Shown here: positions 10,897 to 50,853 of the stretch, in pieces
How positions within the stretch are numbered: position 1 is the first letter of the stretch
Layout: each line of letters begins with the position of its first letter
Assembly: GCA_023267655.1 (NCBI GenBank)
Contig: JAHFMV010000002.1
Span: 7,228 to 71,227 of the forward strand
Direction of reading: 5' to 3'
DNA from: Candidatus Kaiserbacteria bacterium
GTDB lineage: Bacteria > Patescibacteriota > Minisyncoccia > Phycocordibacterales > UBA2100
DNA: 64,000 nucleotides
Made by a program: the position numbers and the translations under genes
Notes under the pieces: generated by a model
What the model was told of the DNA's origin: nothing
The model's database searches: none
Seen by the model: only the letters and a program-made list of their open reading frames with translations

Positions 10897-10939
10897 TGCA
10901 CTGACGCAAGCCTAACAGAATGCTCTGTCTTCGCAATCG

Positions 10940-32350: not shown

Positions 32351-32658
32351 TCCGCGGTGGCGCAACGGTAGCGCAGCTCGCTGTCGAAGGCAGCTTCTTA
32401 GAGGAATCTAAGAATGCAAACGAGGAGAATTGCTGGAAGCCCGAACTTGAAATAGTGGGTAATCAGCAGCCGAGCTCACGAAAGTGAGAAGGTTCAGAGA
32501 CTATCCGAAAGGAGTAGTCCCATGAGATAGGCACAGCCGCCATCTCACGGGACGAAGCACCTCGCACCCAGAACGGGTGATGATATAGTCCACCCCCTTT
32601 GGAAACATTGGGACAAAGTGTAACGAGTTGGTTGTAGGTTCGAATCCTACCCGCGGAG
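32351..32658 (+). tRNA. tRNA-Asn (anticodon GUU) interrupted by a group I intron in the anticodon loop.
   Basis: 5' exon 32351-32384: TCCGCGG acceptor, D-arm GCGC-AACGGTA-GCGC, anticodon stem GCTCG, loop CTGT. 3' exon 32621-32658: TAA, CGAGT, variable TGGTT, T-arm GTAGG-TTCGAAT-CCTAC, acceptor CCGCGGA, discriminator G. The spliced anticodon loop is CTGTTAA. Confidence 0.7.
32385..32620 (+). ncRNA. Group I self-splicing intron within tRNA-Asn.
   Basis: P-like AATTGCTGGAA, Q-like AATCAGCAGCC, R-like GGTTCAGAGACTA and S-like GATATAGTCC elements are present. The IGS GCAGC sits 6 nt into the intron and can pair with the exon end GCUGU. The intron ends in G. Confidence 0.7.
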
Positions 32659-34245
32659 CTCGGTTGGATGATGTGCGAATGCAAGTACCGTGTCAAACGG
32701 TTTTCGCAGCGTAAACTCTAGCGTTTTTTCGTTTACGGTCGGGTTCTGAAGTAAATACCCCAAAATTGTCCTTTTCTCATCAGGTTCAGAACTTTCGAAG
32801 ATTTCACCCATGCGGCGGGACAAGTCGAGGACAGTGCCAACGTGGGTGTGATACTGATGATCCGCCTTTGTGTATGCTTCTAATTCCGCGTTCAAACGGT
32901 ACTGTTCTTCCTTCAATTCCTGCAACTTATTGTCGTAGTCTTCCTGTGTAATACCCATGTCGAGACGCATATCAAGCAGTGCGTTGACCTTGCGCTGCGC
33001 TCTATCGTATTCGCCACGAATGCGTGCTATTTGCCGCTCATGGTACACAGCTTCGTGCTCATTGAGCTCACGAAGTTCTGCCACCAGCCTTTCCTGCACC
33101 TCATGCGGAATCATCTTGAAAGCATCAAATACGGCGTGTACTGGTTCCAAAAGCTTTTTCTCTGGGACATAGTCTCGCTTGCATATCCCTTTCGCATTTG
33201 TACAGGAATAATAAATGAATTTACCTTTCTTTATTTCGGGACTCAGCATGCAACCGCAGTTGTTGCAGCGCAAAAGACCTTTCAACACATATGGCTTTGA
33301 AAGAAGCTTTGAGCGACGGGTGCTTCTACCGCGAAGCACGTCCCGACATTCTTGGAACAAATCAGGTGTAATGAGCTTCGGGTACTTGTGAGGATATTCG
33401 CCATATTTTTTTGATACCGCCATGCCGCACAAAAACGTGTCTTTAAGCATCAGCTCTATATTGCTTCGTGATAACTTTTGCCCCTTAAGACCGCGTAAAC
33501 CCATGCGATCAGCCTCTTTCCACAACGTTGTTATGGAATAGCCACCTGTAGCGTACATTTCAAACAATTTACGTATGATAGGAGCGCGTACCTCATCGAG
33601 AATAATATCGGTTTCGATTACCTCGCCCTTCTCGTTTCGCCGCTGCTTTCGGACGTAGCCGATGCGGGGGTTTCCTGTCCACTCACCAACTCGCCGCTTC
33701 TGCTCGAATGCTCGTTTTACATTATCGCTGATCGCGTTCGAATAATACTCAGCAAGGTTCAGACTGATGCCGAATTGGAATTTACTATTTGCGGTTCCAT
33801 CGCCGTTTATAACTTGATTGTCCGAGGCGAAATGTAATTCGATTTTCCCACTTCTCGCCAATTCGCACAGTAACGCCACCCGTTTATCGAAGACGTTGCG
33901 TGAAAAACGATCTACCTTATCGAAGCACACAGCGACCTTTTCGAACTTCGCCCTTGCCTGTATATACAGCAAAGCTTCGTCGAACACGTCTCTCTTTTCC
34001 TTGTACGCACTTTCGTCAAAACTAAACACTTTCTCGACCTCAAACCCCTTACGTCGACAGTGATTTTTCATTCGCTCGATCTGTGCCGGCAAAGAATTAC
34101 CTGCTTCCTGCTGCTCTGCCGTGGACACTCTGGCGATATTGATTGATTTCATTGTGTTTTCTTTAATTTTACCCCATATCCGCGACGCGAAGTCACGTAA
34201 AATGGCTGATAACTTTTCAAGGATGCTGTCATTTTTTTGAACCAC
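32647..34245 (-). CDS. Large serine recombinase (integrase); the likely start is MKSINIARVST, near 34152.
   Basis: An N-terminal resolvase domain with catalytic Ser (ARVST) and DRFSRN, followed by a recombinase domain, a zinc ribbon (CNNCGC...CTNAKGIC) and a coiled coil. The last codons and stop overlap the tRNA-Asn 3' end. Confidence 0.85.
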   Translation of the reverse strand: MVQKNDSILEKLSAILRDFASRIWGKIKENTMKSINIARVSTAEQQEAGNSLPAQIERMKNHCRRKGFEVEKVFSFDESAYKEKRDVFDEALLYIQARAKFEKVAVCFDKVDRFSRNVFDKRVALLCELARSGKIELHFASDNQVINGDGTANSKFQFGISLNLAEYYSNAISDNVKRAFEQKRRVGEWTGNPRIGYVRKQRRNEKGEVIETDIILDEVRAPIIRKLFEMYATGGYSITTLWKEADRMGLRGLKGQKLSRSNIELMLKDTFLCGMAVSKKYGEYPHKYPKLITPDLFQECRDVLRGRSTRRSKLLSKPYVLKGLLRCNNCGCMLSPEIKKGKFIYYSCTNAKGICKRDYVPEKKLLEPVHAVFDAFKMIPHEVQERLVAELRELNEHEAVYHERQIARIRGEYDRAQRKVNALLDMRLDMGITQEDYDNKLQELKEEQYRLNAELEAYTKADHQYHTHVGTVLDLSRRMGEIFESSEPDEKRTILGYLLQNPTVNEKTLEFTLRKPFDTVLAFAHHPTELRG

Positions 34246-35291
34246 TCATCTGCTCTCATGCCTCTTAAGCGCGGCGCTGTCGTATTGAATTTACGTGCAA
34301 AGCGAGACCACGTTCGCGCGTTCACGAAGGCATCAAGCACGATGCGGAGCTCACGCATACCACCGCAATTACGCGCAAGCATGATGAGACCAACGAGCTC
34401 TATAGCTTCTGCCGCTTTTGCTGGATGCGTCGCCAGTACTTTATACAGCACGTGCTTTGCAGATCTTTTAGGTCCGAATATGACGCCGCGCCAGTTTAAT
34501 GTCGCCGCATCCCAGTAATCGCGAAGGATCGTTTGGCTCTTTTGCGATGAAAAGACATCGGAAAACGCGGGATTCATCCCGAAACCGTGCCGCGCGAATA
34601 CAGCGTTTAACTTTACCCTAGCCGTGAGTTGTACCTCAAAGCGAAGGATATTTTGCCCGCGCAATCTGGCGGCAAGTCTTGTCTGTGCCTGTTGCCACTT
34701 TTTGCCTCTGCCCGTTTTTTTTGATAGTTCAGCCACCTTGTCATAGAACGTGAACGAATGCTGACTCGCCGTCGCCTTGAGACCCTGACCACCATTGCGA
34801 TAGTGCGTGTATGACACATCAACACCTCGGCGGACCATCAGCTTTTCCAGCTCTTTCATGACCCCCGTAATGGGTGCGCGTTTCCCAAGCAAGACATTTT
34901 TGGAATAATCTACCCGCATGATCTTCGCATTTCGAATCTCTTTTGCCGTGAGGTCGATCCCCATCATGCTTAGCCGAGATTGCAGAACCGAAAGAACCAC
35001 GTCGAAATCCGCATCAACCACTTCGTCCACATTATTGCCGTAAAGCAGCTTCGGAACAGAGAACTGGATCTTAATCCTTGATGTCACCCCATGCTTCTTA
35101 CTCATGTTGTTTACCCCTGTAATTTGCGGGAAATAGTGCTCGCTTCCACGCTCTTCCTTGGAGGGATCACGATAAAAGGTCTCATATCCTTTCCCTCGCG
35201 TACCGCCATCCCACATCGGTCTGCCTTTGGTGTCCACATCGCGTGCCGTTAAATTTCCTTGCGACACCGCGAGAATAACAGTGTCGATCAT
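34149..35291 (-). CDS. Putative rolling-circle replication initiator (Rep_trans / phage gene II-like).
   Basis: RVDYSKN and FTFYDKVAE motifs resemble the Rep_trans RxD..D and YDK signatures. It is adjacent to iteron-like repeats. Confidence 0.4.
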   Translation of the reverse strand: MIDTVILAVSQGNLTARDVDTKGRPMWDGGTRGKGYETFYRDPSKEERGSEHYFPQITGVNNMSKKHGVTSRIKIQFSVPKLLYGNNVDEVVDADFDVVLSVLQSRLSMMGIDLTAKEIRNAKIMRVDYSKNVLLGKRAPITGVMKELEKLMVRRGVDVSYTHYRNGGQGLKATASQHSFTFYDKVAELSKKTGRGKKWQQAQTRLAARLRGQNILRFEVQLTARVKLNAVFARHGFGMNPAFSDVFSSQKSQTILRDYWDAATLNWRGVIFGPKRSAKHVLYKVLATHPAKAAEAIELVGLIMLARNCGGMRELRIVLDAFVNARTWSRFARKFNTTAPRLRGMRADEWFKKMTASLKSYQPFYVTSRRGYGVKLKKTQ

Positions 35292-35482
35292 ACGGGCTGT
35301 CGCTCTGTATACAGATGCGAATTAACCCGCCTATCAATTCGGAGAAGCAGATCGTAGAGGCGTACAAGATTTCTCTCGCCGCTAAAATCATCTAATAACG
35401 CAGCAATGGCTGCACTTTTCTCGATTCCGCGCGGCTGCGGATCGCGGGACGCATTGTGCATCCCGATTTCTTTCTCGCTCAT
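35288..35482 (-). CDS. Small hypothetical protein upstream of rep.
   Basis: 64-aa ORF overlapping the rep start by 4 nt. Confidence 0.25.
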   Translation of the reverse strand: MSEKEIGMHNASRDPQPRGIEKSAAIAALLDDFSGERNLVRLYDLLLRIDRRVNSHLYTERQPV

Positions 35483-35600
35483 AGTGAGCTCTGTCGTTTA
35501 CACCCACAGGATCGCGTAAAACGCGCCCTACAGGTTGCGAGATAGGAAGTGGCGGGTCGGACTAGACCCCATCACGCCAAATAATGGCTTTAGACATCAT

Positions 35601-35701
35601 TTGACTACGTTGTGCCGCTTATTCGTACACCACTTCGGTACGAAATACATATTGAAACGCTTTGTTGCGGGATTTTCCCCGCCTTTGTGCCGCTTTATTC
35701 A
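35601..35701. repeat. Iteron-like direct repeats TTGTGCCGCTT(T)ATTC, followed by an AT-rich stretch; candidate origin.
   Basis: Two copies 85 bp apart (35601.. and 35686..), then the AT-rich run caatttatttttatttacttattcc at about 35780. Confidence 0.35.
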
Positions 35702-36015
35702 AACTTATACAGCGTAAACCACTTAACTTACCGAGAAGTATATTCGAGATTAACGAAAAGTCAATACCATTTTGTGTCGCAATTTATTTTTATTTACTTA
35801 TTCCATGCCGCGAGGGCATTTTTTCTCTGAAATCGGAGTGTATGTCCTCGGACTTACTACAAACTCTTGAAATGGCTCAAGAGAGCCGTTTCTATTTTTG
35901 TCGCGACCACGTGCGTGTGTCTCTTTGAATCTTCGCCGCAATTGCCAACATCCATATCGAAACACTGCATACACCCCTCACGACTTGGAAAGGGTTATTA
36001 ATAACTATTTGCACC

Positions 36016-36207
36016 ATGAAAATGTATATTGAGCCGCTGTACCGCCTCGTGTGGGACGAGGCGCAGGGCGCGTACGTCGAGACGGGGGAGCTTCTGGGCT
36101 ACAAAGCTGTGGATTGGCTCGGGCAGATCATCGCATTCGGCGAGAGCCGCGAGGCGGCGTACGAGAATGCGCTGGACGCGGCAGCAGACGTCCTCGGGGG
36201 TGTGTAG
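36016..36207 (+). CDS. HicB-like (UPF0150) small protein.
   Basis: 63 aa. YVETGELLGY...GESREAAYENALDA resembles the HicB_lk antitoxin fold. Confidence 0.4.
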   Translation: MKMYIEPLYRLVWDEAQGAYVETGELLGYKAVDWLGQIIAFGESREAAYENALDAAADVLGGV

Positions 36208-36212
36208 CTGAC

Positions 36213-37352
36213 CTATTCTTTGTGTTCGACGATAAATTTTGCTCGCTGATACAGCTCGTCAAAAGTGAGAATGTCGATGCCATGAATCGACTTGCGAAAT
36301 CGTTGAAAAGTCTCCCGCTTGCTCCGGCTGTCGAGCTGCGAGAGCGAGCCAACCACGATGATTCCTTTCGGCTGAACCGTATAAACGCCTCTACCTTCCA
36401 GCTCGTCTCTGTTGTCCGGCTGCTCTGACCCCGACTTGTCCCACGTCGCCATGTTAGCTTCGATTTGGGACACCGCATCAGTTAACTCTTTCGACAAGCT
36501 CCATGCCCCCGCTCTGATTTCCACGCTACCCTGCAACAGCGGGGTTGCCGGCGTCTTTATTTCAACGAGGACTGTGAAATCTATGTCGCCCGTCGTGGAG
36601 GTAAGGTAATCGCCCTTCTGTCCTCCTTTACCATCCACGCGCGTGCCACCATAATGAGGCTGCGCCTGTTCCTGTTTGAGGATTTGGTAGTTAAGACCAT
36701 AGCCAAAAATCCATTTGTTTTTCTCAAAAAAGCCCTGCCACTCACTCTCCGCGCGGGGAAGCGTTTCGAGCGCTTTTTCAAATCGCTCAAGCACGTCGCG
36801 CCGTTTGAGAAGCTGGTTTATATCCTCATCCGACAACTTTACCTCCGCTGCAGACGAGAGTTTCTTGATGATGCTCACCACGCTCTCCGTATCGCGACCA
36901 CGCAAAGCGGCGACAATCTCCGCTTCGCCCTGCGATATGAGCGAAAAAGCGCCCTGCGGTATCTCTATATCGCGCAAGGATTGCAGGAATGAAATGAGTT
37001 GCCAAAAATTCTCGTGGCATTCCTCCAAACTAACGTTCGCTTTGAGCACGTAAGTGTTTTCCTCGATAGCCCCGCTTTCTTCGAAGATCTTTTGACTTTT
37101 GTCTCGTATGGAGAACGCGAGGCGCGGGGTGAATTTTTCGCCCTTCTTGATGAGGGACACTTTGCAGACGTAGCTCACGCGCGGGCGTTCGTGCAGCACA
37201 AACTGCGTAATCAGCCGTCTTTGCTGGGTGTGGTAGAAGTAGTAAAAGTTATCGACTGCCGGCGCAGAGTTGATCTGGAGGTGGGCAAAGTCATGTTTAC
37301 CAATGACGAAATCCTCGCCATCGCTCCACCCAATAAGCTCGCTGAATTTCAT
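36213..37352 (-). CDS. Shedu-like DUF4263 PD-(D/E)xK nuclease-domain protein.
   Basis: C-terminal GDIDFTVLVEIKTP (D...EIK PD-ExK motif) and GIIVVGS. The size of about 380 aa matches SduA. Confidence 0.5.
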   Translation of the reverse strand: MKFSELIGWSDGEDFVIGKHDFAHLQINSAPAVDNFYYFYHTQQRRLITQFVLHERPRVSYVCKVSLIKKGEKFTPRLAFSIRDKSQKIFEESGAIEENTYVLKANVSLEECHENFWQLISFLQSLRDIEIPQGAFSLISQGEAEIVAALRGRDTESVVSIIKKLSSAAEVKLSDEDINQLLKRRDVLERFEKALETLPRAESEWQGFFEKNKWIFGYGLNYQILKQEQAQPHYGGTRVDGKGGQKGDYLTSTTGDIDFTVLVEIKTPATPLLQGSVEIRAGAWSLSKELTDAVSQIEANMATWDKSGSEQPDNRDELEGRGVYTVQPKGIIVVGSLSQLDSRSKRETFQRFRKSIHGIDILTFDELYQRAKFIVEHKE

Positions 37353-37354
37353 AC

Positions 37355-37885
37355 GTGAGGGCTTTCAACATAGCACTTCCCGCCCTTGCAATAAAGCAAG
37401 GAGACAGAGGGCTCCCGTGCTATATTGTGCGGCATATGAAGACGACGGGCGTCGTGCTGGCAGGCCTATTCTCGATTTTGCTCGTCTTGATTATCCTCAA
37501 ATTGATGGGCTACAGCTTCAATAAAGACTACTTCAGCTTTGATAAGCAGCAGTGCATCGCGAGCGAGGATGAGACCCGCGCAGGCCATTCAGGTATACAG
37601 GGGTGCATATTTTGGATGAGAAACGATTACTTGGAAAAAACGCAGTCGTGGAAAGACGAGTTTGCAAAAGACACAGACTACTGCAATGAAAAATACGGAG
37701 GAGATACCACAAAGGCCGCAAGCTATGCGGGGTTCAAATCACTGAGCGACCCAAGATGCAACTATGGTCCATTTACGAACCAAAAACGGCAAGAAAACTG
37801 GGCATACCTCGTTTCAAAAGAACAAGACGGATTTTACGCATATTGTGTCGAACAAATCTGTCCCGACCAACGCCTTTTCAAATAA
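37355..37885 (+). CDS. Membrane-anchored cysteine-containing hypothetical protein; the likely start is MKTTGVVLAG.
   Basis: An N-terminal TM helix, then a Cys-containing extracytoplasmic domain. Confidence 0.4.
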   Translation: MRAFNIALPALAIKQGDRGLPCYIVRHMKTTGVVLAGLFSILLVLIILKLMGYSFNKDYFSFDKQQCIASEDETRAGHSGIQGCIFWMRNDYLEKTQSWKDEFAKDTDYCNEKYGGDTTKAASYAGFKSLSDPRCNYGPFTNQKRQENWAYLVSKEQDGFYAYCVEQICPDQRLFK

Positions 37886-37943
37886 AGGGAATGCCGCAGT
37901 TGCCACGAATAGCCAGTAAACTGCCGAGTGCTATGATAATGGT

Positions 37944-38288
37944 ATGAAATTAGAAACATTTTTTGGATTGCAGAAAGAAGTACAAGAGTGCGTGGAAAAG
38001 TTTAATTTCAACTGGACTAACTATGTGCAATACATCCACCTTGTTGAAGAGGTAGCGGAATTGGGGGAAGCGCTCACAGTGCATCAGGGAGACAGAAAAG
38101 CTGGTTCTGGTGAAAATGCATTAGCCGACCACCACGACACAAGGGAAGAATTGGGGGATGTTTTATTTAATGTGATACAGATAGCAAATCAGTTAAATCT
38201 CAATCTTGATGAGGTAATGGAGGAAACTTTTGCACGATACGAGGAAAAGTTAAAAAGGCTTAAGAATCAGGCTGAGACGTCCGCATAA
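37944..38288 (+). CDS. MazG-like nucleotide pyrophosphohydrolase.
   Basis: EEVAELGEA and EELGDVLFNV, the all-alpha NTP-PPase motifs. Confidence 0.65.
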   Translation: MKLETFFGLQKEVQECVEKFNFNWTNYVQYIHLVEEVAELGEALTVHQGDRKAGSGENALADHHDTREELGDVLFNVIQIANQLNLNLDEVMEETFARYEEKLKRLKNQAETSA

Positions 38289-39931
38289 AGCACAGACGCG
38301 GGGAGTACGTGGACGAAGGTGCGATAATCCCCTATACAATCAGCACAGTCATGAAGGAGGATAGTGCCGGAATGTAAGCCAGCTCCTTCACCGCTGCTGC
38401 CCACGCTTGAGTTCTGAACTCGTCCAGCCTGGGGAGCCCAGACTTGGATTGACTTGAATTCGCCGGTTATCGAATCGGGATTTTGGCGCGCGGCGCGAAG
38501 CGCCGCGTAGAGAGGATGCGCCGTGCCGGAGATTTTTTGATTGTAGAGTTGCAGGTTCGAGCCGAAGATTTTTTGAATTGCGGATTTTTTGGCGGGGAGA
38601 GAGGGGTTGCTTGGGATTTCAGCAAGGTTTTCTGCCTCCTTTATCCACTCACGCATGGGTTCGAGCCACGCGCTGCCGTCCCGCTCCAAACGCACAATTT
38701 GTTCCAATAACGTCCGCTTGTGGGACAACAGTGCGCGACGCTTCGCCAAGTATGCGTCGCGCTCAATTTCCTGCGCAATATAGAGATCCAAAACGCGGTC
38801 GAGTTTGCGGTCTATTTCGTTCATTTCGTCCCGTAAGCCAGAAATTGTCTGCGCGCTTGTGCGCTCCGCATCGCGTTCATCCACTTGCGTTCTGCGCCCG
38901 AAGTCGTGCGCCCATTCGGGCGGCAGGACAAAGAGCGAAAGCAGATTCGAAATATCAGTAACGAGATTTTCTTCACGCACGTAGGATTGCGTGCAGTGAA
39001 TCGACTTTTTTGTGCAGCGATAGTAAACATATCGGTGAAAATTGCCGTTCTTTTGGTGTTTCTCACGCACCTCGGCCGTGATAGCCATGCCACATTCACC
39101 ACACGACATGAGACCGCAAAATACTTGCGGCTGTGTCGTCGCGGCTTGCGGATGCCCTCGTTCGACAACTACTTTTTGTACTTTATCGAACAGCCGCTTG
39201 TCCACGATTGGCGTATGACGTCCCTCATATAGTTCGCCCATGTAGAGAAAAAGACCGCAATAAAACGGATTGGTGAGAATGAATTTCACGCGGTCGTCGT
39301 GGATACGATTACCGTATAAACTGCGCACTCCATTGTCGTAAAGAAACTTACCAATGTCTTCTACTCGCGAATTGCCTTTAGAATATTTCTCAAACGCGGC
39401 CTGAATTATTTTCGATTTCTTCTTATCAAGCATGATTGTTTTAGTGCGCGGATCGTTTCGATACCCCACCGGCGCAGTACCCGGGAAATCACCGCGCCGC
39501 GCTTTCGCGCGAAGCCCTCGCGCAGTGTTCGCGCTCAATTGTCGGATATATTCATTTGCCATGCCGAATTCAACCGACATGATGAGCACATTGTCCTGCG
39601 GCAAATACGTCCGATCGTGGGTTCGTATTTGCTGGATGATTCCCTGTTGCAATAGCCAGCTAATTTGTCCACTGTCCACGGGATTGCGCGAAAGTCGATC
39701 TATCTTCCAACACAAAATGCCCTGCGCCTCGCCCTTTTGGAGTCGCGCCATCATCTCGCTGAACACGGGGCGGCCGGGCATCTTCGCCGAGCGCTTTTCT
39801 ACAAACTGCTCGACTATTTCTAGCCCCTCCCGCAGCGCGAGCGCGTACAACTCTGACAACTGCGCCTCGATAGATAGGACTTGCTTGTCCTCGACATCAG
39901 TGCTTTTGCGGGCGTAGAGGAAATATTTCAT
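38267..39931 (-). CDS. Large serine recombinase (second copy, with a different sequence).
   Basis: YARKSTD...DRLSRN resolvase domain, a recombinase domain, a zinc ribbon and a coiled coil. Its C-terminal coding region (38444-38616) is one arm of a 173-bp inverted repeat. Confidence 0.85.
   Translation of the reverse strand: MKYFLYARKSTDVEDKQVLSIEAQLSELYALALREGLEIVEQFVEKRSAKMPGRPVFSEMMARLQKGEAQGILCWKIDRLSRNPVDSGQISWLLQQGIIQQIRTHDRTYLPQDNVLIMSVEFGMANEYIRQLSANTARGLRAKARRGDFPGTAPVGYRNDPRTKTIMLDKKKSKIIQAAFEKYSKGNSRVEDIGKFLYDNGVRSLYGNRIHDDRVKFILTNPFYCGLFLYMGELYEGRHTPIVDKRLFDKVQKVVVERGHPQAATTQPQVFCGLMSCGECGMAITAEVREKHQKNGNFHRYVYYRCTKKSIHCTQSYVREENLVTDISNLLSLFVLPPEWAHDFGRRTQVDERDAERTSAQTISGLRDEMNEIDRKLDRVLDLYIAQEIERDAYLAKRRALLSHKRTLLEQIVRLERDGSAWLEPMREWIKEAENLAEIPSNPSLPAKKSAIQKIFGSNLQLYNQKISGTAHPLYAALRAARQNPDSITGEFKSIQVWAPQAGRVQNSSVGSSGEGAGLHSGTILLHDCADCIGDYRTFVHVLPASVLYADVSA
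38444..38616. repeat. Inverted repeat IR1, copy 1, inside the recombinase 3' coding region.
   Basis: Near-identical to the reverse complement of 40929-41113. The two copies are confirmed by shared peptides PSLPAKKSAIQKIFGSNLQLYNQK... on opposite strands. Confidence 0.7.
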
Positions 39932-40080
39932 CGTTATTTGAAGGTTACCCTAGAATTTTGTTATCCACATTCATTTGAAATTCACCTGTTGACATGCTAA
40001 TATGATGCTAATCCATTCATTTGGAGGTGGATAGTCCGAATGGGCTAGCGTGAGGGAGTCCCGCAAGGGGCTTTTTCATT

Positions 40081-40884
40081 TTAAGTGAGAAATATCTTTC
40101 CATATCCATCAATTCTCCCGTTATAGAGGTGGCGATTATATTTTTCCGCTACGGCCTTGCAAAGTTGTTGACCATAACTACCCCCCGGACTATCGACTTT
40201 TCCTTTTGCGTGTAGAAGTTCCATGCGGCATGGATAAGCAAGAATGTCGGCAATTTGTAATCCCGTAACATTCGCACTTTTCGGCTGGATCTTTATTTCT
40301 TTCGTAGTTAGAGAATTTTGAAAGAATTCCGGCTTACGAAAATTTGTACCGCTCTCCCACACGTTTTGGTATGCTTCTTTGAGCTGCATATCTTCACGAC
40401 CGCCGCGACTTTCCGCCATCACATCACCCTTAGCATTGTAATAATTGAGAAATCCGCAGTAGCGCTCGAGTAGTGCAACAACGCAATAGTGATATGGATG
40501 TAAGGCTATATTGCCGTACCTTTTCACATGAGCATTTTTATCAATTACAACCGTCAACAGCTTAAAGTCGTACTTTTTCAGAGTGACTAAAAAATCGTCG
40601 TTAAAAGCTCTTTCTTTTGCCGGATCTAGTAGTCGCCAAAACGGGCCTTTTTTATTGATGAGCTCTTTACGATGAAGAATGACGGGTTCGTCCGGATTAT
40701 GCGGAAAATGTCGCTCTTTAAATTCTGTGAAGTCAGGATGGATGACTTTTTTATAGTAGTCGTTTTCAACAATAACACCTGTGATGCCCAAATACCGACT
40801 TACCACGTTATCTTCATTGCGCGAATACACGTGATCTCCGGCCTCATCGAGATAAAGTCGATAGCGTTTTACATCCATGGGCAA
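40081..40884 (-). CDS. DUF3800-family protein.
   Basis: N-terminal YRLYLDEAGD (DEAG/DESG-type motif) and a length of about 270 aa. Confidence 0.5.
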   Translation of the reverse strand: MPMDVKRYRLYLDEAGDHVYSRNEDNVVSRYLGITGVIVENDYYKKVIHPDFTEFKERHFPHNPDEPVILHRKELINKKGPFWRLLDPAKERAFNDDFLVTLKKYDFKLLTVVIDKNAHVKRYGNIALHPYHYCVVALLERYCGFLNYYNAKGDVMAESRGGREDMQLKEAYQNVWESGTNFRKPEFFQNSLTTKEIKIQPKSANVTGLQIADILAYPCRMELLHAKGKVDSPGGSYGQQLCKAVAEKYNRHLYNGRIDGYGKIFLT

Positions 40885-40928
40885 ATAATACCAAATTATG
40901 AGGGACTAAGTGACTCTCGTGGCCGCGC

Positions 40929-41113
40929 GCATGGATTCCGTATCCCCTCTCTCCCCGCCAAAAAATCTGCAATTCAAAAAATCTTCGGCTCGAACCTGCA
41001 ACTCTACAATCAAAAAGTCTCCGGCACGGCGCATCCTCTCTACGCGGCGCTTCGCGCCGCGCTCCAAAATCCCGATTCGATAACCGGCGAATTCAAATCA
41101 ATCCAAGTCTGGG
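40929..41113. repeat. Inverted repeat IR1, copy 2.
   Basis: Reverse complement of 38444-38616 with a few mismatches. Read on the plus strand it continues into IR2 and would give an alternative recombinase C-terminus, ...QVWAQLYQIARTYFSKHDE*. Confidence 0.7.
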
Positions 41114-41382
41114 CTCAACTATACCAAATAGCTCGAACCTATTTTAGCAAACATGATGAGTGATCGGACACGCGCCGCGTGAGTGGTGACGTGTCCCAAC
41201 AAGGTACGCTCCGCGTCCGTGCCAACTCTGACGCCGCCCGCCGCAGCAAAGCTGCGGCAACCCCGAAAGAAACCGCTTCCCATGCATCTCTGTTCGGCGG
41301 GGGTGGGATGCGTATTGAAATGGAATGGGCGGTTTCTTTCGGGGTTCTGCCCTGTGGGCAGGGGGCGACAAACCCCTCAATC
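41113..41382. repeat. Inverted repeat IR2, copy A (about 250 bp), followed by a 14-bp-stem palindromic hairpin at 41383-41415.
   Basis: Identical 80-aa translations on opposite strands (41139..41384 minus and 44817..45059 plus) show this is a DNA inverted repeat. The hairpin is AAACCCCTCAATCA-CCCAG-TGATTGAGGGGTTT. Confidence 0.7.
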
Positions 41383-41467
41383 ACCCAGTGATTGAGGGGT
41401 TTGAATTACTGCGAGTTAGCTAGAGCGCGTATTTGTAAAAAGTCTCGAACGTTGTTAGATTAGGGAA

Positions 41468-42025
41468 ATGTCTCCAAATATGAATACTCGCTTAGGTATT
41501 CTCAACATTGTCCCGATAAAAGAGCGCCCGGAATTGCTCGCGGAGCCAGTGGCCAAAGCCATTTCAAACTTGTCGGACGCTGACACAATTGGAGTAACAG
41601 AAATCGATCCACGGTTATCTGATACCACCGCATTTTGTGCGCAATATCAAGTTGATATGAATCGAACCGTTAATTGCGTCGTACTTGAGGCAAAACGAGG
41701 CGATCGCACATGGTTTGCGACGGCCGTTATTTTCGGTGACACTCGTGCTGACGTGAATGGTCTTGCACGGCGCACTCTTGAAGCTCGCAAGGTATCATTT
41801 GCGCCCATGGATCAAGCTGTGGCACAAACAGGAATGGAGTACGGAGGAATTAGTCCTATCGGCATTCCAGCTGACTGGCCTATTCTCATTGATAAGGCAG
41901 TTGCTGATTCGGAATATGTGATTGTTGGCAGCGGTATACGGAAATCCAAGCTCGTGATTCCAGGTAAGATTCTTGCTGCTTTACCAAATGCGAAAGTACT
42001 GGAAAGCCTCGGTCAGAAAAAATAA
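41468..42025 (+). CDS. YbaK/ProX-family aminoacyl-tRNA deacylase (free-standing editing domain).
   Basis: EYGGISPIGIP matches the YbaK GGxSPxG motif. About 185 aa. Confidence 0.55.
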   Translation: MSPNMNTRLGILNIVPIKERPELLAEPVAKAISNLSDADTIGVTEIDPRLSDTTAFCAQYQVDMNRTVNCVVLEAKRGDRTWFATAVIFGDTRADVNGLARRTLEARKVSFAPMDQAVAQTGMEYGGISPIGIPADWPILIDKAVADSEYVIVGSGIRKSKLVIPGKILAALPNAKVLESLGQKK

Positions 42026-42066
42026 GGGCCAGCGAAGTGTTCGCCAGCCCTTCTGCACGCGACCGA

Positions 42067-42855
42067 TCATCGTGTCAAGAGATTCTCCGATTCTACACTG
42101 AGTCTCTTCGCCGCACTTTCGCCGTTCACCACTAACTCCAGCCAACGATGAGTGCCGAAACCAGAACTTCCGACAACCCAACTTAGATTTTTGGGAGTGA
42201 CGTCCGCGAGTTGCTCGGAAAAATCGAGATCTGCGAAACGTGTCAGATTTCTTTCTCCTTTCAAGACAGTCGTCTTGCAGTTGCCGAAAGGATCGTCGAC
42301 ATACCAGACGGCAAGTGGTGCATCGGGCACGACATCTCGTACCTGCATCTTTTGCCCAGGCACTTTCCATCGTGCCGCAATCCACAGAGCAACGCGAGGC
42401 AAGAATTCATAACTCCTAAACTGCGTTGTAGTTACATTCTCTGCTTCAGAGGAAGAAATAAGACGTTTCTTCACCGCCCACTTCATCACCGTCGGAATAT
42501 CGAGAACATGCATTGTCTCTGCGAGTTGAAGTTTTTTTACAAGCGAGAGCGTTTGGCCAGCGACGGTTGACACGAGGAGTGTCTTACCGATGTAGATATA
42601 ACAAAACGGCGTGCCGTTCGGCCATTTTTCTCGCAAGCCATTACGAGGCGCCACGTTCGCAAGCAAAATTCCTTCGCCACCATTACAACGCGCTGCGTCA
42701 AGTGCGTCGACGATATGTCCCGCAGCTTCGAGGTCGTTACGCGCCCCAATGACTTGCGGCAAGAGACCGCAAAGAGACTGAACGCGAAGCGACTGTCGCC
42801 CTGCGGCGTTTCGGCAATCACAATCTGTCACAATGCCAAAGAACTGTATCTTCAT
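42067..42855 (-). CDS. DUF62 / SAM hydroxide adenosyltransferase-like protein (SAM hydrolase family), divergent N-terminus.
   Basis: C-terminal VWYVDDPFGNCKTTV matches the IDxFGNxxTN motif, and GSSGFGTHRWLELVVNGESAAKRL matches the DUF62 C-terminal domain. N-terminal motifs are weak. Confidence 0.45.
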   Translation of the reverse strand: MKIQFFGIVTDCDCRNAAGRQSLRVQSLCGLLPQVIGARNDLEAAGHIVDALDAARCNGGEGILLANVAPRNGLREKWPNGTPFCYIYIGKTLLVSTVAGQTLSLVKKLQLAETMHVLDIPTVMKWAVKKRLISSSEAENVTTTQFRSYEFLPRVALWIAARWKVPGQKMQVRDVVPDAPLAVWYVDDPFGNCKTTVLKGERNLTRFADLDFSEQLADVTPKNLSWVVGSSGFGTHRWLELVVNGESAAKRLSVESENLLTR

Positions 42856-42922
42856 GACCTATCCTTTCGGGCCACTTGCTGCCGAGGACCATTCCTCGAC
42901 AGGATAACGACCCCAAAAAAGA

Positions 42923-42950
42923 AAACCCTCCGCGTTTGCGGAGGGTTTTC
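42923..42950. terminator. Strong bidirectional rho-independent terminator AAAACCCTCCGC-GTTT-GCGGAGGGTTTT.
   Basis: A perfect 12-bp stem flanked by A- and T-tracts. It lies between the Met-rich leader ORF and the DUF62 gene start. Confidence 0.65.
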
Positions 42951-42976
42951 GTGAGATTCTTTTTTTCAAAATTACA

Positions 42977-43048
42977 TCATACGAAATGTTCCTCCGCGCG
43001 AAGGGTCATCATGGCCATCATCATTGCTGCGCGAAGATGCGTATGCAT
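42977..43048 (-). CDS. Candidate Met-codon-rich leader peptide MHTHLRAAMMMAMMTLRAEEHFV.
   Basis: 23 codons with 6 ATG codons clustered at positions 9-14, followed 27 nt later by the terminator. Codons 18-20 (GCGGAGG) duplicate the terminator 3' arm and could form an antiterminator. Confidence 0.35.
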   Translation of the reverse strand: MHTHLRAAMMMAMMTLRAEEHFV

Positions 43049-43165
43049 ATGTCGATGATATCGAGATTTGGAGAGCTGTCAATAGCGGGAGGGCGAACAA
43101 GGACTCTGCATGTTGAATAATGCTACCCTTATGGGTGTGGCGGGAACGTTGTACTATGAGCAGTC

Positions 43166-43678
43166 ATGATTAGAACGGCTAAAATAAGTGACATCGCTCG
43201 GCTTGTTGATATTGATTCTGCAGCCTATGGTTCGTACGGAGCTGACAGGGGCTACTTCGAAGAAAAGTTTGCTTCCGATAATGTGGGCATTCTTGTCGTC
43301 GAAGAAGCTGGGGATGTTAGCGGTTTTTGCGTTTTTGAGATTCTGAGATCGAATCAAATTCCGCCTGATTTTTGCGATTTGAAATTGAGAAAACCACTGG
43401 AAGATACGTGGACACATATTATTGCGTTTACAACGTCAACCAACTATATCGACCTTGAGTCGGATGGTCAGCTGGTTCGAGCCGTAGAAGAAAAAGCGAA
43501 AATCATGGGATCTGATATCTTTTGTGTCCCATTAAGTGTAGAACATCCTTTTGAAAAAAATGACGTCTTCGGCTTTTGGAAGAAGAATGGCTATGAGCGT
43601 GCGGGAACTATCAAGTGGAAAGCCAGTTCGAATGAACTCATTGAGTGTTATTTTTATTGCAAACTCGGCGCTAGATGA
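43166..43678 (+). CDS. GNAT-family N-acetyltransferase.
   Basis: About 170 aa with an acetyl-CoA binding-like core (VVEEAGDVSGFCVFE). Confidence 0.55.
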   Translation: MIRTAKISDIARLVDIDSAAYGSYGADRGYFEEKFASDNVGILVVEEAGDVSGFCVFEILRSNQIPPDFCDLKLRKPLEDTWTHIIAFTTSTNYIDLESDGQLVRAVEEKAKIMGSDIFCVPLSVEHPFEKNDVFGFWKKNGYERAGTIKWKASSNELIECYFYCKLGAR

Positions 43679-43717
43679 TCGAAAACATATCGCCCATAGA
43701 TAGGCTAAAATACGGTA

Positions 43718-44227
43718 ATGGCAGATGACCCAGTCCCACAACCCGTTGAAAGCCCTCAAACACCGGTATCTGACGGGTTAGCGAATGTGCTGATTCCAGA
43801 GCCAGTTTCGGAGCCGACGTCGGAAGCGTCGGCGAGCGCTCCGAGCGAACCGGCGCAGCCGGTGAGCGATGCTGCGGAGGTCGCGGCGGAGCCGCAGAGT
43901 GAACCACCAACGCCAGAAGCAAAACCACAAACGCAATCAGCGACGTCAGCCGCGTCTGCGCCAAGCCTGATTTCCGATAAGACACCCGAGCACGACCGTG
44001 AACTCCTGAAAATCGCGAGAGCGAAAATTCAGACAAAGAAGAGCGAGAAACTGGAGAAAATCATGATGCTGTTTGAGAAGAAAAAGGAAGTCACGAATGA
44101 TGACGTTGAGAAATTGTTGCGTTGCTCCGACGCGACAGCGCGGAGGTATTTGAACGAACTCGTGAAGCAAGGAAAACTCAAGCGCGTTGGTGAGACTGGT
44201 GCAGGCGTCGCGTATATCAAAGCGTGA
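43718..44227 (+). CDS. Acidic/Pro-rich protein with a C-terminal winged-helix HTH.
   Basis: C-terminal DDVEKLLRCSDATARRYLNELVKQGKLKRVG. Confidence 0.4.
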   Translation: MADDPVPQPVESPQTPVSDGLANVLIPEPVSEPTSEASASAPSEPAQPVSDAAEVAAEPQSEPPTPEAKPQTQSATSAASAPSLISDKTPEHDRELLKIARAKIQTKKSEKLEKIMMLFEKKKEVTNDDVEKLLRCSDATARRYLNELVKQGKLKRVGETGAGVAYIKA

Positions 44228-44334
44228 GCTTTGAAATTGAATTTGCATCTAGAGAGTGCCGCGAGCATGTGCAACTTGCTCGCGGCGAGATATGTGCGCG
44301 CATGGGGGGGGGTTGGGGCAAGCACGGGGATTCG

Positions 44335-44704
44335 GGCCTCGGGCATTTCCGCTAGGGCAAGGCCCTTCGGTGAGCGCCGCCGAAATCTTGGAATGGAGAA
44401 GTGTTAGAAGCGGAAGCGACACCACGAAAGCAATCTTGGAAACGAGGAGAGGGGTTGTGCGATGGGCGGACTCCGAAGGCCCGTTAATGCGAGCCATACA
44501 AGTCTGTATCACCATGACCAGAGGACACAACGATAGTGGTTGTGTTACAGCTGCGAGGAGGAGACCGAGCTGGGGAGAGGATTCCTTCCTCTCCCCAATC
44601 AGAAACGGCGCCCGAGCCAGAGAGCCCGCAGGCGATACTGGCGAGGAGAAGCGCCGTACCGAGGCATCTAGGCGCGAGCAGCCCTAGCGGAAATGCCCGA
44701 GGCC
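44335..44704. mobile_element. MITE-like non-autonomous element with 24-bp perfect terminal inverted repeats.
   Basis: TIR GGCCTCGGGCATTTCCGCTAGGGC at 44335-44358 and its reverse complement at 44681-44704. The 322-bp interior is structured and non-coding, for example the GGGGAGAGGA-TTCC-TTCCTCTCCCC hairpin. Confidence 0.45.
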
Positions 44705-44799
44705 GGATGGCCGAGTGGTGCACCCCGTTGGACTTTGCCCTAACCGATAGCGATGACTGAGGCTCAATATGCATTTGCATTCCGTATTTGCATTGAACC

Positions 44800-45076
44800 A
44801 ATCAAATACCGGGTAAATGATTGGTTCCCGCCGCCCCCTGCCCTTGGGCAGAACCCCGAAAGAAACCGCCCATTCCATTTCAATACGCATCCCACCCCCG
44901 CCGAACAGAGATGCATGGGAAGCGGTTTCTTTCGGGGTTGCCGCAGCTTTGCTGCGGCGGGCGGCGTCAGAGTTGGCACGGACGCGGAGCGTACCTTGTT
45001 GGGACACGTCACCACTCACGCGGCGCGTGTCCGATCACTCATCATGTTTGCTAAAATAGGTTCGAGCTATTTGGTA
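44800..45076. repeat. Inverted repeat IR2, copy B, with an inner-side 10-bp-stem palindrome at 44794-44824.
   Basis: Reverse complement of 41113-41382. The hairpin is GAACCAATCA-TTTACCCGGTATT-TGATTGGTTC. Confidence 0.7.
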
Positions 45077-45152
45077 TAGTTGAGCAGATTTCTTAGCTTT
45101 ATCTTGCAAGGCATTTTTAGGTCCCCTTGTTGGACGCTCGAACCTAAATTTG

Positions 45153-45190
45153 ACATTCTATATATTTTGTGTATTATACTTTTGGCAAAG
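45153..45190 (+). promoter_or_regulatory. Sigma70-like promoter (TTGACA, 17 nt, TATTAT) for the small ORF at 45228.
   Basis: A consensus -35 and near-consensus -10, followed by the RBS AAGAGGAA 8 nt before the ATG. Confidence 0.4.
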
Positions 45191-45227
45191 TTGAGCCAAG
45201 TTACATTCGAAAAAGAGGAACTTCTCA

Positions 45228-45416
45228 ATGATTAGCAGCGGACGGTATCTCTACCACCTTCAGGACATCGCCGAAATCAAGGCAATGCCTCAGCCCGTGA
45301 ACTCGATTCAGCAGATGCGTCTCCGCAATATGGAGAGCGAAGTTGCCGAGTTCGAGAAGGCAAACCCCGAAGAAGCGACGCGCCTCCAGGCCCGTGCCAA
45401 GGAACTCGCTTCCTGA
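45228..45416 (+). CDS. Small hypothetical protein.
   Basis: 62-aa ORF with a good promoter and RBS. Confidence 0.4.
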   Translation: MISSGRYLYHLQDIAEIKAMPQPVNSIQQMRLRNMESEVAEFEKANPEEATRLQARAKELAS

Positions 45417-45540
45417 TTCAGCTCACCAGCGGAAAGTCCGCTTCGGTGGGCTTTCTGTTTTAGTAACTCGGAATGTGTAGGTATGGATTATTCTGGAAAT
45501 AGGTTCTAACGTCGTCCACGACGCGGACTTGAATTAGCAC

Positions 45541-50821: not shown

Positions 50822-50853
50822 CTGCTGCTGTGAACGCAGCAGGACGAGGGGCA

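What the first reader, a model, noticed from the sequence alone, without database searches (positions are those of the whole stretch)
36016..40884. Defence-type cargo cluster: Shedu-like nuclease, HicB-like, MazG-like and DUF3800 proteins.
The 379-aa protein at 36213-37352 has the PD-ExK arrangement GDIDFTVLVEIK characteristic of DUF4263/Shedu. It is flanked by a HicB-like small gene, a MazG-like NTP pyrophosphohydrolase and a DUF3800 protein. These families recur in anti-phage defence islands. The combination next to an invertible recombinase segment could represent an uncharacterised multi-gene system.
Basis: partly seen in the sequence, partly recalled or inferred. Interest (0 to 1): 0.5.

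Follow-up and report, generated by a model that had tools for sequence, protein, structure and literature searches.

The report
Shedu gene on tandem recombinase elements
The region contains a genuine but ordinary single-gene Shedu anti-phage nuclease that sits, with unrelated neighbour genes, on one of two small recombinase-driven mobile elements inserted side by side at a tRNA gene; it is not a new multi-gene defence system.

The parts
32351..32659 (+). tRNA-Thr(UGU) gene interrupted by a 236-nt group I intron. Its 3' end is the integration target (attB right half) and forms the left junction of element E1 (core GAGC at 32656-32659).
   Evidence: ARAGORN with introns allowed. Rfam RF00028 at 32374-32612, 62.2 bits against a gathering score of 50. 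The stop codon of LSR#1 lies inside the antisense tRNA.
32647..34152 (-). LSR#1, the large serine recombinase of element E1 (501 aa as integrated). Its last codons read antisense into the tRNA, so its native tail has been swapped out.
   Evidence: Pfam Resolvase, Recombinase and Zn_ribbon_recom. The start at 34152 is as called on L001. Tail analysis.
34149..35291 (-). Rolling-circle-type replication initiator (Phage_CRI/G2P-like), part of the E1 backbone.
   Evidence: PF05144, E 3.4e-8, 33.9 bits against 21.7. Homologues (33% identity) lie directly upstream of LSR#1-family genes in L097 and L098-L100.
35288..35482 (-). p64, a small conserved backbone gene upstream of Rep. Function unknown.
   Evidence: tblastn homologues lie in the same position in L097-L100. 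No Pfam hit.
E1 cargo of unknown function.
36213..37352 (-). SduA (Shedu), a stand-alone PD-(D/E)xK nuclease with a subtype-specific N-terminal domain. E1 cargo.
37436..37885 (+). p149, a protein with an N-terminal hydrophobic (membrane-anchor-like) stretch and many cysteines. Function unknown; divergent from sduA and upstream of MazG.
   Evidence: ORF. Called as 149 aa on L001 and L003. No hits in Pfam, NCBIfam, PHROGs or PADLOC. The anchor is read from the sequence only.
37944..38288 (+). MazG-like all-alpha NTP pyrophosphohydrolase (114 aa). The EEVAE and EELGD acidic motifs are present.
   Evidence: PF03819. NCBIfam and PHROGs MazG models. Motifs read from the translation.
38332..38437 (-). 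R1, the attP right half of E1. Joined to LSR#1 at the GCTC core it encodes the family's native C-terminal tail (ELPRLDEFRTQAWAAAVKELAYIPALSSFMTVLIV*). It resembles an antisense tRNA acceptor/T-arm and served as the attB right half for E2 (core 38434-38437).
   Evidence: Hybrid translation. Conserved LPxLD(E/K)FRTxxW tails in P0287, P0288, P0293, P0314, P0325, P0329, P0333 and P0353. A motif search of all six frames finds only this site in the window.
38267..39931 (-). LSR#2, the large serine recombinase of element E2 (554 aa as integrated). After ...SIQVWA the ORF runs into R1 and acquires a 57-aa foreign tail.
   Evidence: Pfam and PHROGs integrase hits. Family tails.
40081..40884 (-). DUF3800 protein (probable start at 40878, giving 265 aa). 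RNase H-like family; the N-terminal DE (LDEAGD) and C-terminal QxxD (QIAD) motifs are present. It is the cargo in the slot of E2.
   Evidence: PF12686. Motifs as defined in PMC7736814, read. DUF3800 also fills the slot in L101 and in 3 of 76 slot ORFs.
40944..41352 (+). Site B, an inverted, LSR-less spare copy of the LSR#2 3' end (L1b, 40944-41116, 98% identical to 38434-38606) fused at core GCTC (41113-41116) to R2. R2 encodes the native tail QLYQIARTYFSKHDE* followed by a structured region.
   Evidence: Native ARTYF tails in homologues. The same feature occurs in 44 of 51 family loci.
41256..41354 (.). Conserved hairpin element of about 95 nt inside R2. A second copy lies at 44844-44944 on the other strand.
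   Evidence: z = -8.8 and -8.4 for 41164-41400. The closing stem differs in sequence but still pairs in 12 family members, around a conserved loop. No Rfam match.
41353..44845 (.). Segment X of E2, between the inverted R2 copies. It holds a YbaK-like tRNA_edit gene, a SAM_HAT-like gene, a 170-aa ORF and an HTH_DeoR protein.
   Evidence: Pfam. The analogous 3.0-kb segment in L101 holds different genes.
44846..45085 (-). Site C, the distal junction of E2 (attL type). It joins L3, the inferred chromosomal flank of the tRNA, to R2 at core GCTC (45082-45085).
   Evidence: The same L_B|GCTC|R_P junction is seen in L101.

Best explanation
The finding spans parts of two separate small integrative elements. 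Both were inserted by large serine recombinases (LSRs) at the 3' end of an intron-containing tRNA-Thr gene, probably in a Patescibacteria (CPR) genome. E1 (32660-38437, 5.8 kb) has a conserved backbone of p64, a rolling-circle Rep and LSR#1. Its variable cargo here is p63, SduA, p149 and MazG. E2 (38438-45085, 6.6 kb) then integrated into E1's distal hybrid att site. That site keeps the genuine chromosomal left half and E1's tRNA-mimicking right half, R1. E2 carries LSR#2 with DUF3800 in a cargo slot. In both LSR families attP lies inside the last codons of the recombinase gene, with crossover in or next to a shared GCTC. Integration therefore replaces the native C-terminal tail with tRNA-derived codons (LSR#1) or R1-derived codons (LSR#2). 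SduA is a complete, catalytically intact, stand-alone Shedu nuclease. By homology it should form an auto-inhibited oligomer whose N-terminal domain senses an infection cue and whose PD-(D/E)xK domain nicks or cuts invading DNA. In characterised Shedu proteins that cue is free DNA ends or another trigger. p63, p149, MazG and DUF3800 are independent passengers, not Shedu subunits. Shown here: the domain assignments, the lack of conserved neighbours, the junction anatomy, the conserved native tails and the family-wide architecture. Inferred: the order of integration events, the mobility today, the anti-phage activity and the host phylum.
For: SduA identity and intactness: D248, E264 and K266 invariant in 27 homologues; aligned to 8TI8, and the 8TI9 chain has A at the position aligned to E264. 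No conserved partners: 0 of 80 loci; flanks are RM genes and LSRs, as reported for Shedu in general in bioRxiv 10.1101/2023.08.10.552793. Strand layout. E1 boundaries: LSR#1 reads into the antisense tRNA-Thr. LSR#1 joined to R1 gives a 532-aa protein whose tail matches the conserved LPxLD(E/K)FRTxxW...IPxLS tails of full-length family members. The p64-Rep-LSR backbone recurs with different cargo in L097 (C5-MTase, SNF2 helicase) and L098 (HATPase_c_3). E2 boundaries: the three junctions L1|GCTC|R1, L1|GCTC|R2 and L3|GCTC|R2. L1|R2 restores the family's conserved ...ARTYF... tail. Most relatives instead end in antisense-tRNA translations (G[ILF]EP..) and overlap tRNA genes. L101 (77% identical LSR, another genome) has the same A/B/C sites, the same GCTC core, a DUF3800 in the slot and a tRNA-Asn at site A. 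44 of 51 family loci have the inverted spare 3' end, and at least 18 of these carry a native tail. Separate mobility: L089 is 100% identical to the window through MazG and R1 and diverges exactly at the core. Independent assemblies L001 and L003 reproduce junctions A and B. Defence-type slot cargo in the family: RM methylases, ResIII, AAA_15/21, KAP NTPase and DUF3800.
Against: No empty site, excised circle or opposite orientation was recovered, so current mobility and the order of events are inferred. The left half next to R1 in L089 (L4) differs from the left half at site C (L3), so L089 is not the simple pre-E2 state of this strain. L089 carries a further E1-type tail remnant, which suggests another tandem array. 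The origin and role of the internal inverted site B are not explained by canonical integration. Absence of conserved neighbours does not exclude that p63 or MazG modulates Shedu in this particular element. The neighbour tests used tblastn (E <= 1e-3) and a census showing only the top 25 families, so very divergent MazG or DUF3800 members further than two genes away could be missed. The host phylum is inferred only from the names attached to homologues. The full-length SduA model is of low confidence (pLDDT 61.8), so the type of N-terminal sensor is unknown.
Confidence: 0.75

Rival explanations
1. The genes form one new multi-component defence system. Shedu would be the effector, regulated or assisted by the HicB-like protein, MazG and DUF3800.
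For: All lie within 5 kb on mobile DNA. MazG and DUF3800 families appear in other defence contexts: DUF3800 in type VII retrons (PMC7736814) and with Cas12a2 (PMC10910872). The exact arrangement recurs in three other assemblies, but these are 99.9-100% identical in DNA where they overlap, so they do not count as independent evolutionary evidence.
Against: 0 of 80 SduA loci share any of the partners. The closest SduA relatives have other neighbours. The genes are in opposing orientations. DUF3800 is separated from the rest by an LSR crossover and is absent from variant L089. No PADLOC model hits any partner. There is no HMM support for HicB and no HicA.
Confidence: 0.06
2. The LSR#2-DUF3800 segment (38438-41112) is primarily an invertible switch, not an independently integrated element. 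Flipping between the 173-nt inverted repeats would toggle LSR#2 between a native and a foreign C-terminal tail, and would reorient DUF3800. This would be a phase-variation device inside a single island.
For: 98%-identical inverted repeats end exactly at the crossover core. A spare 3' end with the native tail is kept in 44 of 51 family loci. A second inverted pair (R2, 100% identical) flanks segment X. The high identity is compatible with ongoing exchange.
Against: Only one orientation is seen in every assembly recovered. Junctions A and C fit canonical attR and attL of an integrated circle, in the window and in L101. Relatives are fused to many different tRNAs, which indicates integration. LSRs normally do not recombine attP-like with attR-like sites without a directionality factor (general knowledge). 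The two ideas do not exclude each other.
Confidence: 0.15
3. The repeats and junctions are assembly artefacts (chimeric joins of related strains at repeats), and the cluster is not contiguous in any real genome.
For: The source is a metagenome assembly. Other assemblies break inside R2 (L001 ends 141 nt into it) and at the IS30-like gene. A 100% identical 240-nt inverted repeat leaves the orientation of segment X unresolved by short reads.
Against: Junctions A and B are reproduced in independent assemblies (L001 from ENA, L003 from Logan). The same three-site architecture, with the same core, occurs in L101 from an unrelated genome and, in part, in dozens of JGI contigs. The L1 copies differ at a few positions (98%), unlike a collapsed repeat.
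Confidence: 0.04

Closest known systems
Shedu (SduA) single-gene anti-phage nuclease, e.g. B. cereus SduA (PDB 8TI8/8TI9) and E. coli SduA
   Same: The C-terminal DUF4263 PD-(D/E)xK nuclease domain has conserved D...ExK residues. There is a full-length match to a PADLOC SduA subtype. The gene stands alone, next to RM genes and mobile elements in relatives.
   Different: Only about 22-24% identical to the solved B. cereus protein (Foldseek alignment). The beta-rich N-terminal domain (residues about 14-84) has no solved relative, so the activating cue cannot be assigned. The lineage is mostly Patescibacteria and Acidobacteriota MAGs. No activity data exist.
Large-serine-recombinase integrative elements (phage A118/phiC31-type integrases, SCCmec Ccr, Tn4451 TnpX)
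   Same: Both LSRs have the three-domain architecture. Site-specific junctions share a short core and lack long direct repeats. NCBIfam finds partial similarity to CcrA/B and XisF.
   Different: Here attP lies inside the recombinase's own 3' coding end, the targets are tRNA 3' ends, and (in the LSR#2 family) a spare inverted copy of the 3' end plus attP is retained. I know of no description of this combination, and the two literature searches found none. Absence from that library is not proof of novelty.
SSV1-type (fusellovirus) tyrosine integrases of archaea
   Same: attP lies within the integrase gene, and integration into a tRNA gene alters the integrase ORF (my own knowledge, not tested here).
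   Different: A different enzyme superfamily (tyrosine against serine) and a different domain of life. In SSV the gene is split in two. Here only the last 15-35 codons are exchanged.
HicB antitoxins / UPF0150 small proteins
DUF3800 proteins of type VII retrons, Cas12a2-associated TPR-DUF3800, and DUF3800-associated RNA motifs
   Same: The Pfam family matches, and the DE and QxxD motifs of the predicted RNase H-like fold are present. A strongly structured conserved element lies about 370 nt upstream.
   Different: There is no reverse transcriptase, no CRISPR and no TPR domain here. None of the Rfam DUF3800 RNA motifs is detected. The nearby hairpin accompanies the LSR family whether or not the cargo is DUF3800.

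Membership tests
Shedu / SduA | DUF4263 (SduA_C) nuclease domain above the curated threshold | tested here: met
   PF14082, E 4.4e-32, 111.9 bits against a cut-off of 27, residues 202-368.
Shedu / SduA | PD-(D/E)xK catalytic residues conserved | tested here: met
   D248, E264 and K266 are invariant in 27 homologues. They align to B. cereus SduA, and the 8TI9 chain has A at the E264-equivalent position.
Shedu / SduA | Full-length similarity to a recognised SduA subtype, including the N-terminal regulatory domain | tested here: met
   PADLOC PDLC00391, E 8e-143, query 5-377 against profile 9-401 of 402.
Shedu / SduA | Single-gene organisation with no obligatory partner | tested here: met
   No shared neighbour in 80 loci or in the two closest relatives.
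Shedu / SduA | Confers anti-phage protection; nicks or cuts DNA | not testable with these tools
   Needs expression and phage or linear-DNA challenge.
HicB antitoxin (HicAB type II TA) | HMM match to the HicB, HicB_lk_antitox or UPF0150 families | tested here: not met
   No such hit at E <= 1 for p63 or its 10 homologues.
HicB antitoxin (HicAB type II TA) | HicB N-terminal (partial dsRBD/RNase H-like) fold | tested here: inconclusive
HicB antitoxin (HicAB type II TA) | Adjacent HicA toxin gene | tested here: not met
   No HicA-like ORF in 35288-36207. The small ORFs have no relevant Pfam hit. The downstream neighbour is the convergent sduA.
HicB antitoxin (HicAB type II TA) | C-terminal DNA-binding domain (RHH/HTH) | tested here: not met
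   The protein is 63 aa and a single domain.
MazG-type NTP pyrophosphohydrolase | MazG domain above threshold, with the acidic EExxE...ExxD metal-binding motifs | tested here: met
   PF03819, 34.9 bits against 22. EEVAE and EELGD are read from the translation. That these are the defining motifs is from my own knowledge.
DUF3800 | PF12686 above threshold, plus the N-terminal DE and C-terminal QxxD motifs | tested here: met
   48.1 bits against 21. LDEAGD and QIAD are present. The motifs are as described in PMC7736814.
DUF3800-associated RNA motifs (DUF3800-I to -XI, drum, skipping-rope) | Covariance-model match near the gene | tested here: not met
   No Rfam hit at gathering score or at E <= 1 in 35300-45600.
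Large serine recombinase integrative element | Resolvase, Recombinase and Zn-ribbon domains with the catalytic serine | tested here: met
   Both LSRs. R8, K9, S10, T11 and D12 are invariant in the LSR#2 family.
Large serine recombinase integrative element | attL/attR junctions that recombine to attP and attB | tested here: inconclusive
   The junction logic is consistent, and the native tails are restored in silico for both LSRs. No empty site or circle sequence was recovered.
Serine-invertase-type invertible segment | Both orientations present in the population | tested here: not met
   Only one orientation appears in L001, L003 and the window. The coverage of evidence is thin.

The most novel reading that the evidence does not exclude
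The LSR#2-type unit may be an undescribed class of tRNA-targeting serine-recombinase cassette, found on contigs that are probably Patescibacteria. It would combine five features: attP inside the recombinase's last codons; tail-swapping on integration; a retained inverted spare 3' end carrying attP; a conserved hairpin of about 95 nt; and a short slot that carries single defence genes. DUF3800 would then be a stand-alone RNase H-like defence or element-maintenance effector occupying that slot. The inverted spare end would let the element flip to restore an active recombinase gene.
Probability: 0.3. Interest if true: 0.6.

Novelty: new member of a known kind. Interest (0 to 1): 0.35.

Why it matters
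As a defence finding it adds little. It is one more Shedu, of a recognised PADLOC subtype, behaving as the literature describes: single-gene, and associated with mobile elements and RM systems. Its value lies in the context. It shows how very small genomes, probably Patescibacteria, acquire single defence genes. The vehicles are 3-7 kb recombinase cassettes that stack at tRNA genes. It also exposes a large recombinase family whose attachment site lies inside its own coding end. That family offers many natural attP/attB pairs, which may be useful as integrase tools. It also points to DUF3800 as a testable candidate cargo effector. Separating E1 from E2 prevents a false 'new multi-gene system' from entering defence catalogues.

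Tried and rejected
- HicB assignment by HMM (Pfam, NCBIfam, PHROGs, PADLOC) and by PDB sequence search gave nothing. Foldseek on the p63 model gave nothing significant.
- The Rfam search for DUF3800-type RNA motifs or any other RNA in 35300-45600 found only sub-threshold leader-like noise at about 42.9 kb.
- The promoter and terminator scan of 35300-41500 was not above shuffled expectation, so it was not used.
- Look-ups aimed at the empty site or an alternative context failed. The DUF3800 and YbaK-like exact proteins are not on record. Contigs with the 129-aa protein all break at the IS30-like gene.
- A direct-repeat search for a duplicated tRNA 3' end found none, as expected for serine recombinases.
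- I first considered that L089 was the simple empty site for E2. I rejected this because its left half (L4) differs from L3 and it carries a second E1-type tail.
- I considered R2 as the native tail of LSR#1. By my own reading of the sequences, the reading frame gives ELNYTK*, which does not match the family tail, so I rejected it.
- RNAalifold on a MAFFT alignment of the hairpin element gave a weak consensus (-5.4 kcal/mol) because the stems were misaligned. Single-sequence folds were used instead, and no formal covariation statistic was obtained.
- The full-length SduA AF2 model had low confidence (pLDDT 61.8), so no conclusion is drawn on the N-terminal sensor domain.
- Literature searches for LSR, tRNA and Patescibacteria returned nothing relevant.

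Full report
**1. What is at the coordinates.**
ORF listing and profile searches give the following map.
- LSR#1, 32647-34152(-): Resolvase, Recombinase and Zn_ribbon_recom domains.
- A Phage_CRI/G2P-like rolling-circle Rep, 34149-35291(-): E 3.4e-8.
- p64, 35288-35482(-).
- p63, 36016-36207(+).
- SduA, 36213-37352(-).
- p149, 37436-37885(+).
- MazG, 37944-38288(+): PF03819, E 1.8e-8.
- LSR#2, 38267-39931(-).
- DUF3800, 40081-40884(-): PF12686, E 2.7e-12.

**2. The Shedu gene is genuine and complete.**
- It matches Pfam SduA_C at 111.9 bits (cut-off 27).
- It matches PADLOC SduA model PDLC00391 from end to end (E 8e-143).
- phmmer aligns residues 184-376 to B. cereus Shedu (8TI8, E 7.7e-19). 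The 8TI9 chain has alanine at the position aligned to E264.
- D248, E264 and K266 are invariant in an alignment of 27 homologues.
- A low-confidence AF2 model (pLDDT 61.8) finds only B. cereus Shedu in the PDB (Foldseek E 3.5e-11). The beta-rich N-terminal domain has no match.
- The subfamily is large. 1472 proteins score E <= 1e-10. Those that carry a name come mostly from Parcubacteria, Paceibacterota and other CPR MAGs, plus Acidobacteriota.

From the literature, Shedu is a single-protein system. An N-terminal domain restrains or directs a PD-(D/E)xK nuclease. E. coli SduA clamps free DNA ends and nicks at a fixed distance (bioRxiv 10.1101/2023.08.10.552762). B. cereus SduA is an auto-inhibited tetramer that is activated to an octamer (bioRxiv 10.1101/2023.08.10.552793). 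I infer one of these modes for this protein. Which cue it senses cannot be told.

**3. 'HicB-like' is not established.**
- p63 has no hit to HicB or UPF0150 models at E <= 1 in any library.
- It has no meaningful PDB sequence hit.
- It belongs to a rare family: 10 clusters among 1.84 billion representatives.
- A confident model (pLDDT 92.9) is beta-beta-beta-alpha.
- Foldseek finds nothing.
- There is no HicA-like ORF nearby and no DNA-binding domain.
- The resemblance is a lead at fold level only.

**4. There is no conserved multi-gene unit.**
- A genome-collection scan with an SduA alignment returned 80 loci at 35-74% identity. tblastn with the window's p63, p176, MazG, DUF3800, Rep and p64 found none of them within +-10 kb of any. 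LSR genes were near about ten of these loci.
- The 84%-identical SduA (P0002) sits among metabolic genes. The 76%-identical one (P0003) sits among protease and peptidase genes.
- A Pfam census of the two ORFs on each side of 35 SduA homologues (119 ORFs) is led by N6_Mtase, HsdM, ResIII and other RM domains, and by LSR domains. No MazG or DUF3800 is listed.
- This agrees with the published survey: Shedu is single-gene, and often lies in RM/BREX neighbourhoods and on mobile elements.
- In the window, sduA is tail-to-tail with p63 (5 nt apart) and head-to-head with p149-MazG, so it shares no operon with them.

**5. The region is two mobile elements, not one.**
Rfam finds a group I intron at 32374-32612. 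LSR#1's stop codon lies inside the antisense tRNA.

Repeat analysis and sequence reading reveal four junctions that share the core GCTC:
- …CCAACCGA|GCTC|CGCGGGTAGG (LSR#1 joined to the tRNA)
- …CAAGTCTGG|GCTC|CCCAGGCTGG (site A, LSR#2 joined to R1)
- …CAAGTCTGG|GCTC|AACTATACC (site B, on the opposite strand)
- …AAGAAATCT|GCTC|AACTATACC (site C)

*E2.* Homologues of LSR#2 fall into two groups. One group keeps a conserved native ending (…LVWALVYDFARTYF…, …LYELARTHF…). That is the tail encoded by L1|R2 at site B (QLYQIARTYFSKHDE*). The other, larger group diverges right after 'VWA' into PRVGFEPTT…, GIEPR… and similar endings, which are translations of antisense tRNA T-arms. In L090-L092 and L101 the LSR 3' end indeed overlaps a tRNA-Asn on the other strand. 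In L013 and L033 an LSR lies against tRNA-Ala and tRNA-Gln. So attP lies in the recombinase's own last codons, and integration swaps the tail.

*E1.* Joining LSR#1 to R1 at the core gives a 532-aa protein ending ELPRLDEFRTQAWAAAVKELAYIPALSSFMTVLIV*. Full-length LSR#1-family members end the same way:
- P0287: LPTLDEFRTIDW…
- P0333: LPELDGFRTAEWRKALQEIGLIPILS…
- also P0288, P0293, P0314, P0325, P0329 and P0353.

A motif search finds this tail only at 38436 in the window. R1 is therefore E1's own attP right half, and E1 is 32660-38437.

The p64-Rep-LSR backbone recurs in L097 and L098-L100 with different cargo (C5 methylase with an SNF2 helicase; a HATPase_c_3 protein). So p63, SduA, p149 and MazG are the variable cargo of this copy.

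R1 (GCTCCCCAGGCTGGA…) resembles the antisense tRNA 3' ends that LSR#2 relatives use (GCTCCCCGGGTAGGA… in L101). This explains why E2 integrated at E1's distal hybrid site, giving site A (L1|R1) and site C (L3|R2).

E2 is therefore 38438-45085, and DUF3800 belongs to it, not to the Shedu element.

Contig L089 comes from a sister sample. It is 100% identical to the window from 37716 through MazG and R1, and departs exactly at the core. This is direct evidence that the junction is a natural recombination breakpoint.

L001 and L003 reproduce the window's arrangement in other assemblies.

**6. The E2 architecture is a family trait.**
L101 has a 77% identical LSR from a different MAG. It has these features:
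- site A, on tRNA-Asn
- an inverted copy of the LSR 3' end 2.7 kb away
- a very divergent DUF3800 gene in between
- 161-nt inverted R_P copies flanking 3.0 kb of other genes
- the same GCTC core

L091 and L092 have an inverted copy that encodes the native tail HLYELARTHFTLNP*.

A metagenome scan added 80 loci.
- Of 51 loci with a complete LSR 3' end and at least 1.2 kb upstream, 44 carry an inverted copy of their own 3' end (73-204 nt, 75-100% identity).
- At least 18 of those copies run on into an ARTYF-type tail.
- The slot between the copy and the LSR start is 0.1-6 kb.
- Its 76 ORFs (35 loci) include 15 small HTH_3 proteins, type II/III methylases and ResIII, AAA_15/AAA_21 ATPases, KAP NTPases, HNH, SocA_Panacea and three DUF3800 proteins.
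- DUF3800 thus sits where known defence genes sit. This is suggestive, but it is not a test of function.

DUF3800 itself has the DE and QxxD motifs of the predicted RNase H-like fold.

**7. What remains unexplained.**
- Why the family keeps an inverted spare attP/3' end is unknown. It could allow integration without damaging the gene. It could also allow the LSR segment to flip and regain the native tail. I saw only one orientation.
- L089's flank (L4) is not the window's L3. L089 also contains a second E1-type tail remnant 567 nt further on, so other tandem arrays exist.
- The R2 region folds far better than shuffles (z -8.8 and -8.4). It contains a hairpin of about 95 nt whose long closing stem changes sequence but keeps pairing across 12 family members, around a conserved loop. 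It has no Rfam match, and I could not obtain a proper covariation statistic.

**8. Verdict.**
- The defence-cargo idea is correct.
- The multi-gene-system idea is not supported.
- Shedu here is a new member of a known, single-gene kind.
- The tandem LSR elements with an attP inside the gene are the part worth following up.

Noticed in passing
window 32351-32659 (intron 32374-32612): A tRNA-Thr(UGU) gene is interrupted in its anticodon loop by a 236-nt group I intron (Rfam 62 bits). The default tRNA scan missed it. It is the integration target of element E1.
   Followed up: partly
window 41256-41354 (+) and 44844-44944 (-); also L101 5301-5402 and 8426-8527, L128, L131 (3 copies), L132, L142, L144, L145, L146, L106: A conserved hairpin of about 95 nt lies downstream of the native LSR#2-family stop codon. 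Its long closing stem differs in sequence between members but still pairs. The loop motif ...CCAT...TTTCGCGGGGG...GAAAnnGAATGG is conserved. The 237-nt region folds at z -8.8. There is no Rfam match. It could be an RNA or a DNA element.
   Followed up: partly
L089 (ENA ERZ27247837), positions 692-722 and 1259-1289: This variant contig shares MazG and R1 with the window and then continues into a 118-aa gene and a second E1-type attP right half. That second site is 24/31 nt identical to R1 and encodes ELRTLDVYRTLDWAQAVKELEFLPVLKSFV*. This suggests tandem arrays of E1-family remnants in a sister strain.
   Followed up: partly
L102-L181, immediately upstream of many LSR#2-family genes (e.g. L110 6260-6466, L117 6033-6239, L149 990-1196): A Cro/C1-type HTH_3 ORF of about 68 aa, divergent from the LSR, recurs (15 of the 76 slot ORFs from 35 loci). 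It may be a regulator or a directionality factor. The window's E2 has no such ORF.
   Followed up: no
L013 and L008 (SduA at 10001-11143; LSR at about 7876-9315; inverted 3'-end copy at 9345-9498): In these genomes an SduA of the same subfamily lies just outside the inverted spare end of an LSR#2-family recombinase. The same Shedu subtype therefore also rides on E2-type elements.
   Followed up: partly
window 45542-46549 (-): An IS30-like transposase (rve and HTH_38 domains) lies just beyond E2. Contigs from four other assemblies all end inside it, so it is probably multi-copy.
   Followed up: no
window about 50456-51015 (-) (L093 4073-4632): A 53-aa gene with a weak precomputed UPF0150 (HicB-like) hit lies directly upstream of a 133-aa gene. 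This is a more plausible HicB-type pair than p63, and it lies outside the finding.
   Followed up: no
window 44332-44358 / 44681-44707 and 44256-44845: A 27-nt inverted repeat (96%) lies within a G+C-rich stretch at the end of segment X in which no ORF with a family match was found (the 143-aa ORF there has no Pfam hit). Its function is unknown.
   Followed up: no
window 26953-31548 (+): A 1531-aa ORF rich in Thr, Ser and Gly, with repeated Cys-containing modules and a Gly-rich linker, lies just upstream of the tRNA. I take it for a probable surface protein from the sequence alone; it was not analysed.
   Followed up: no
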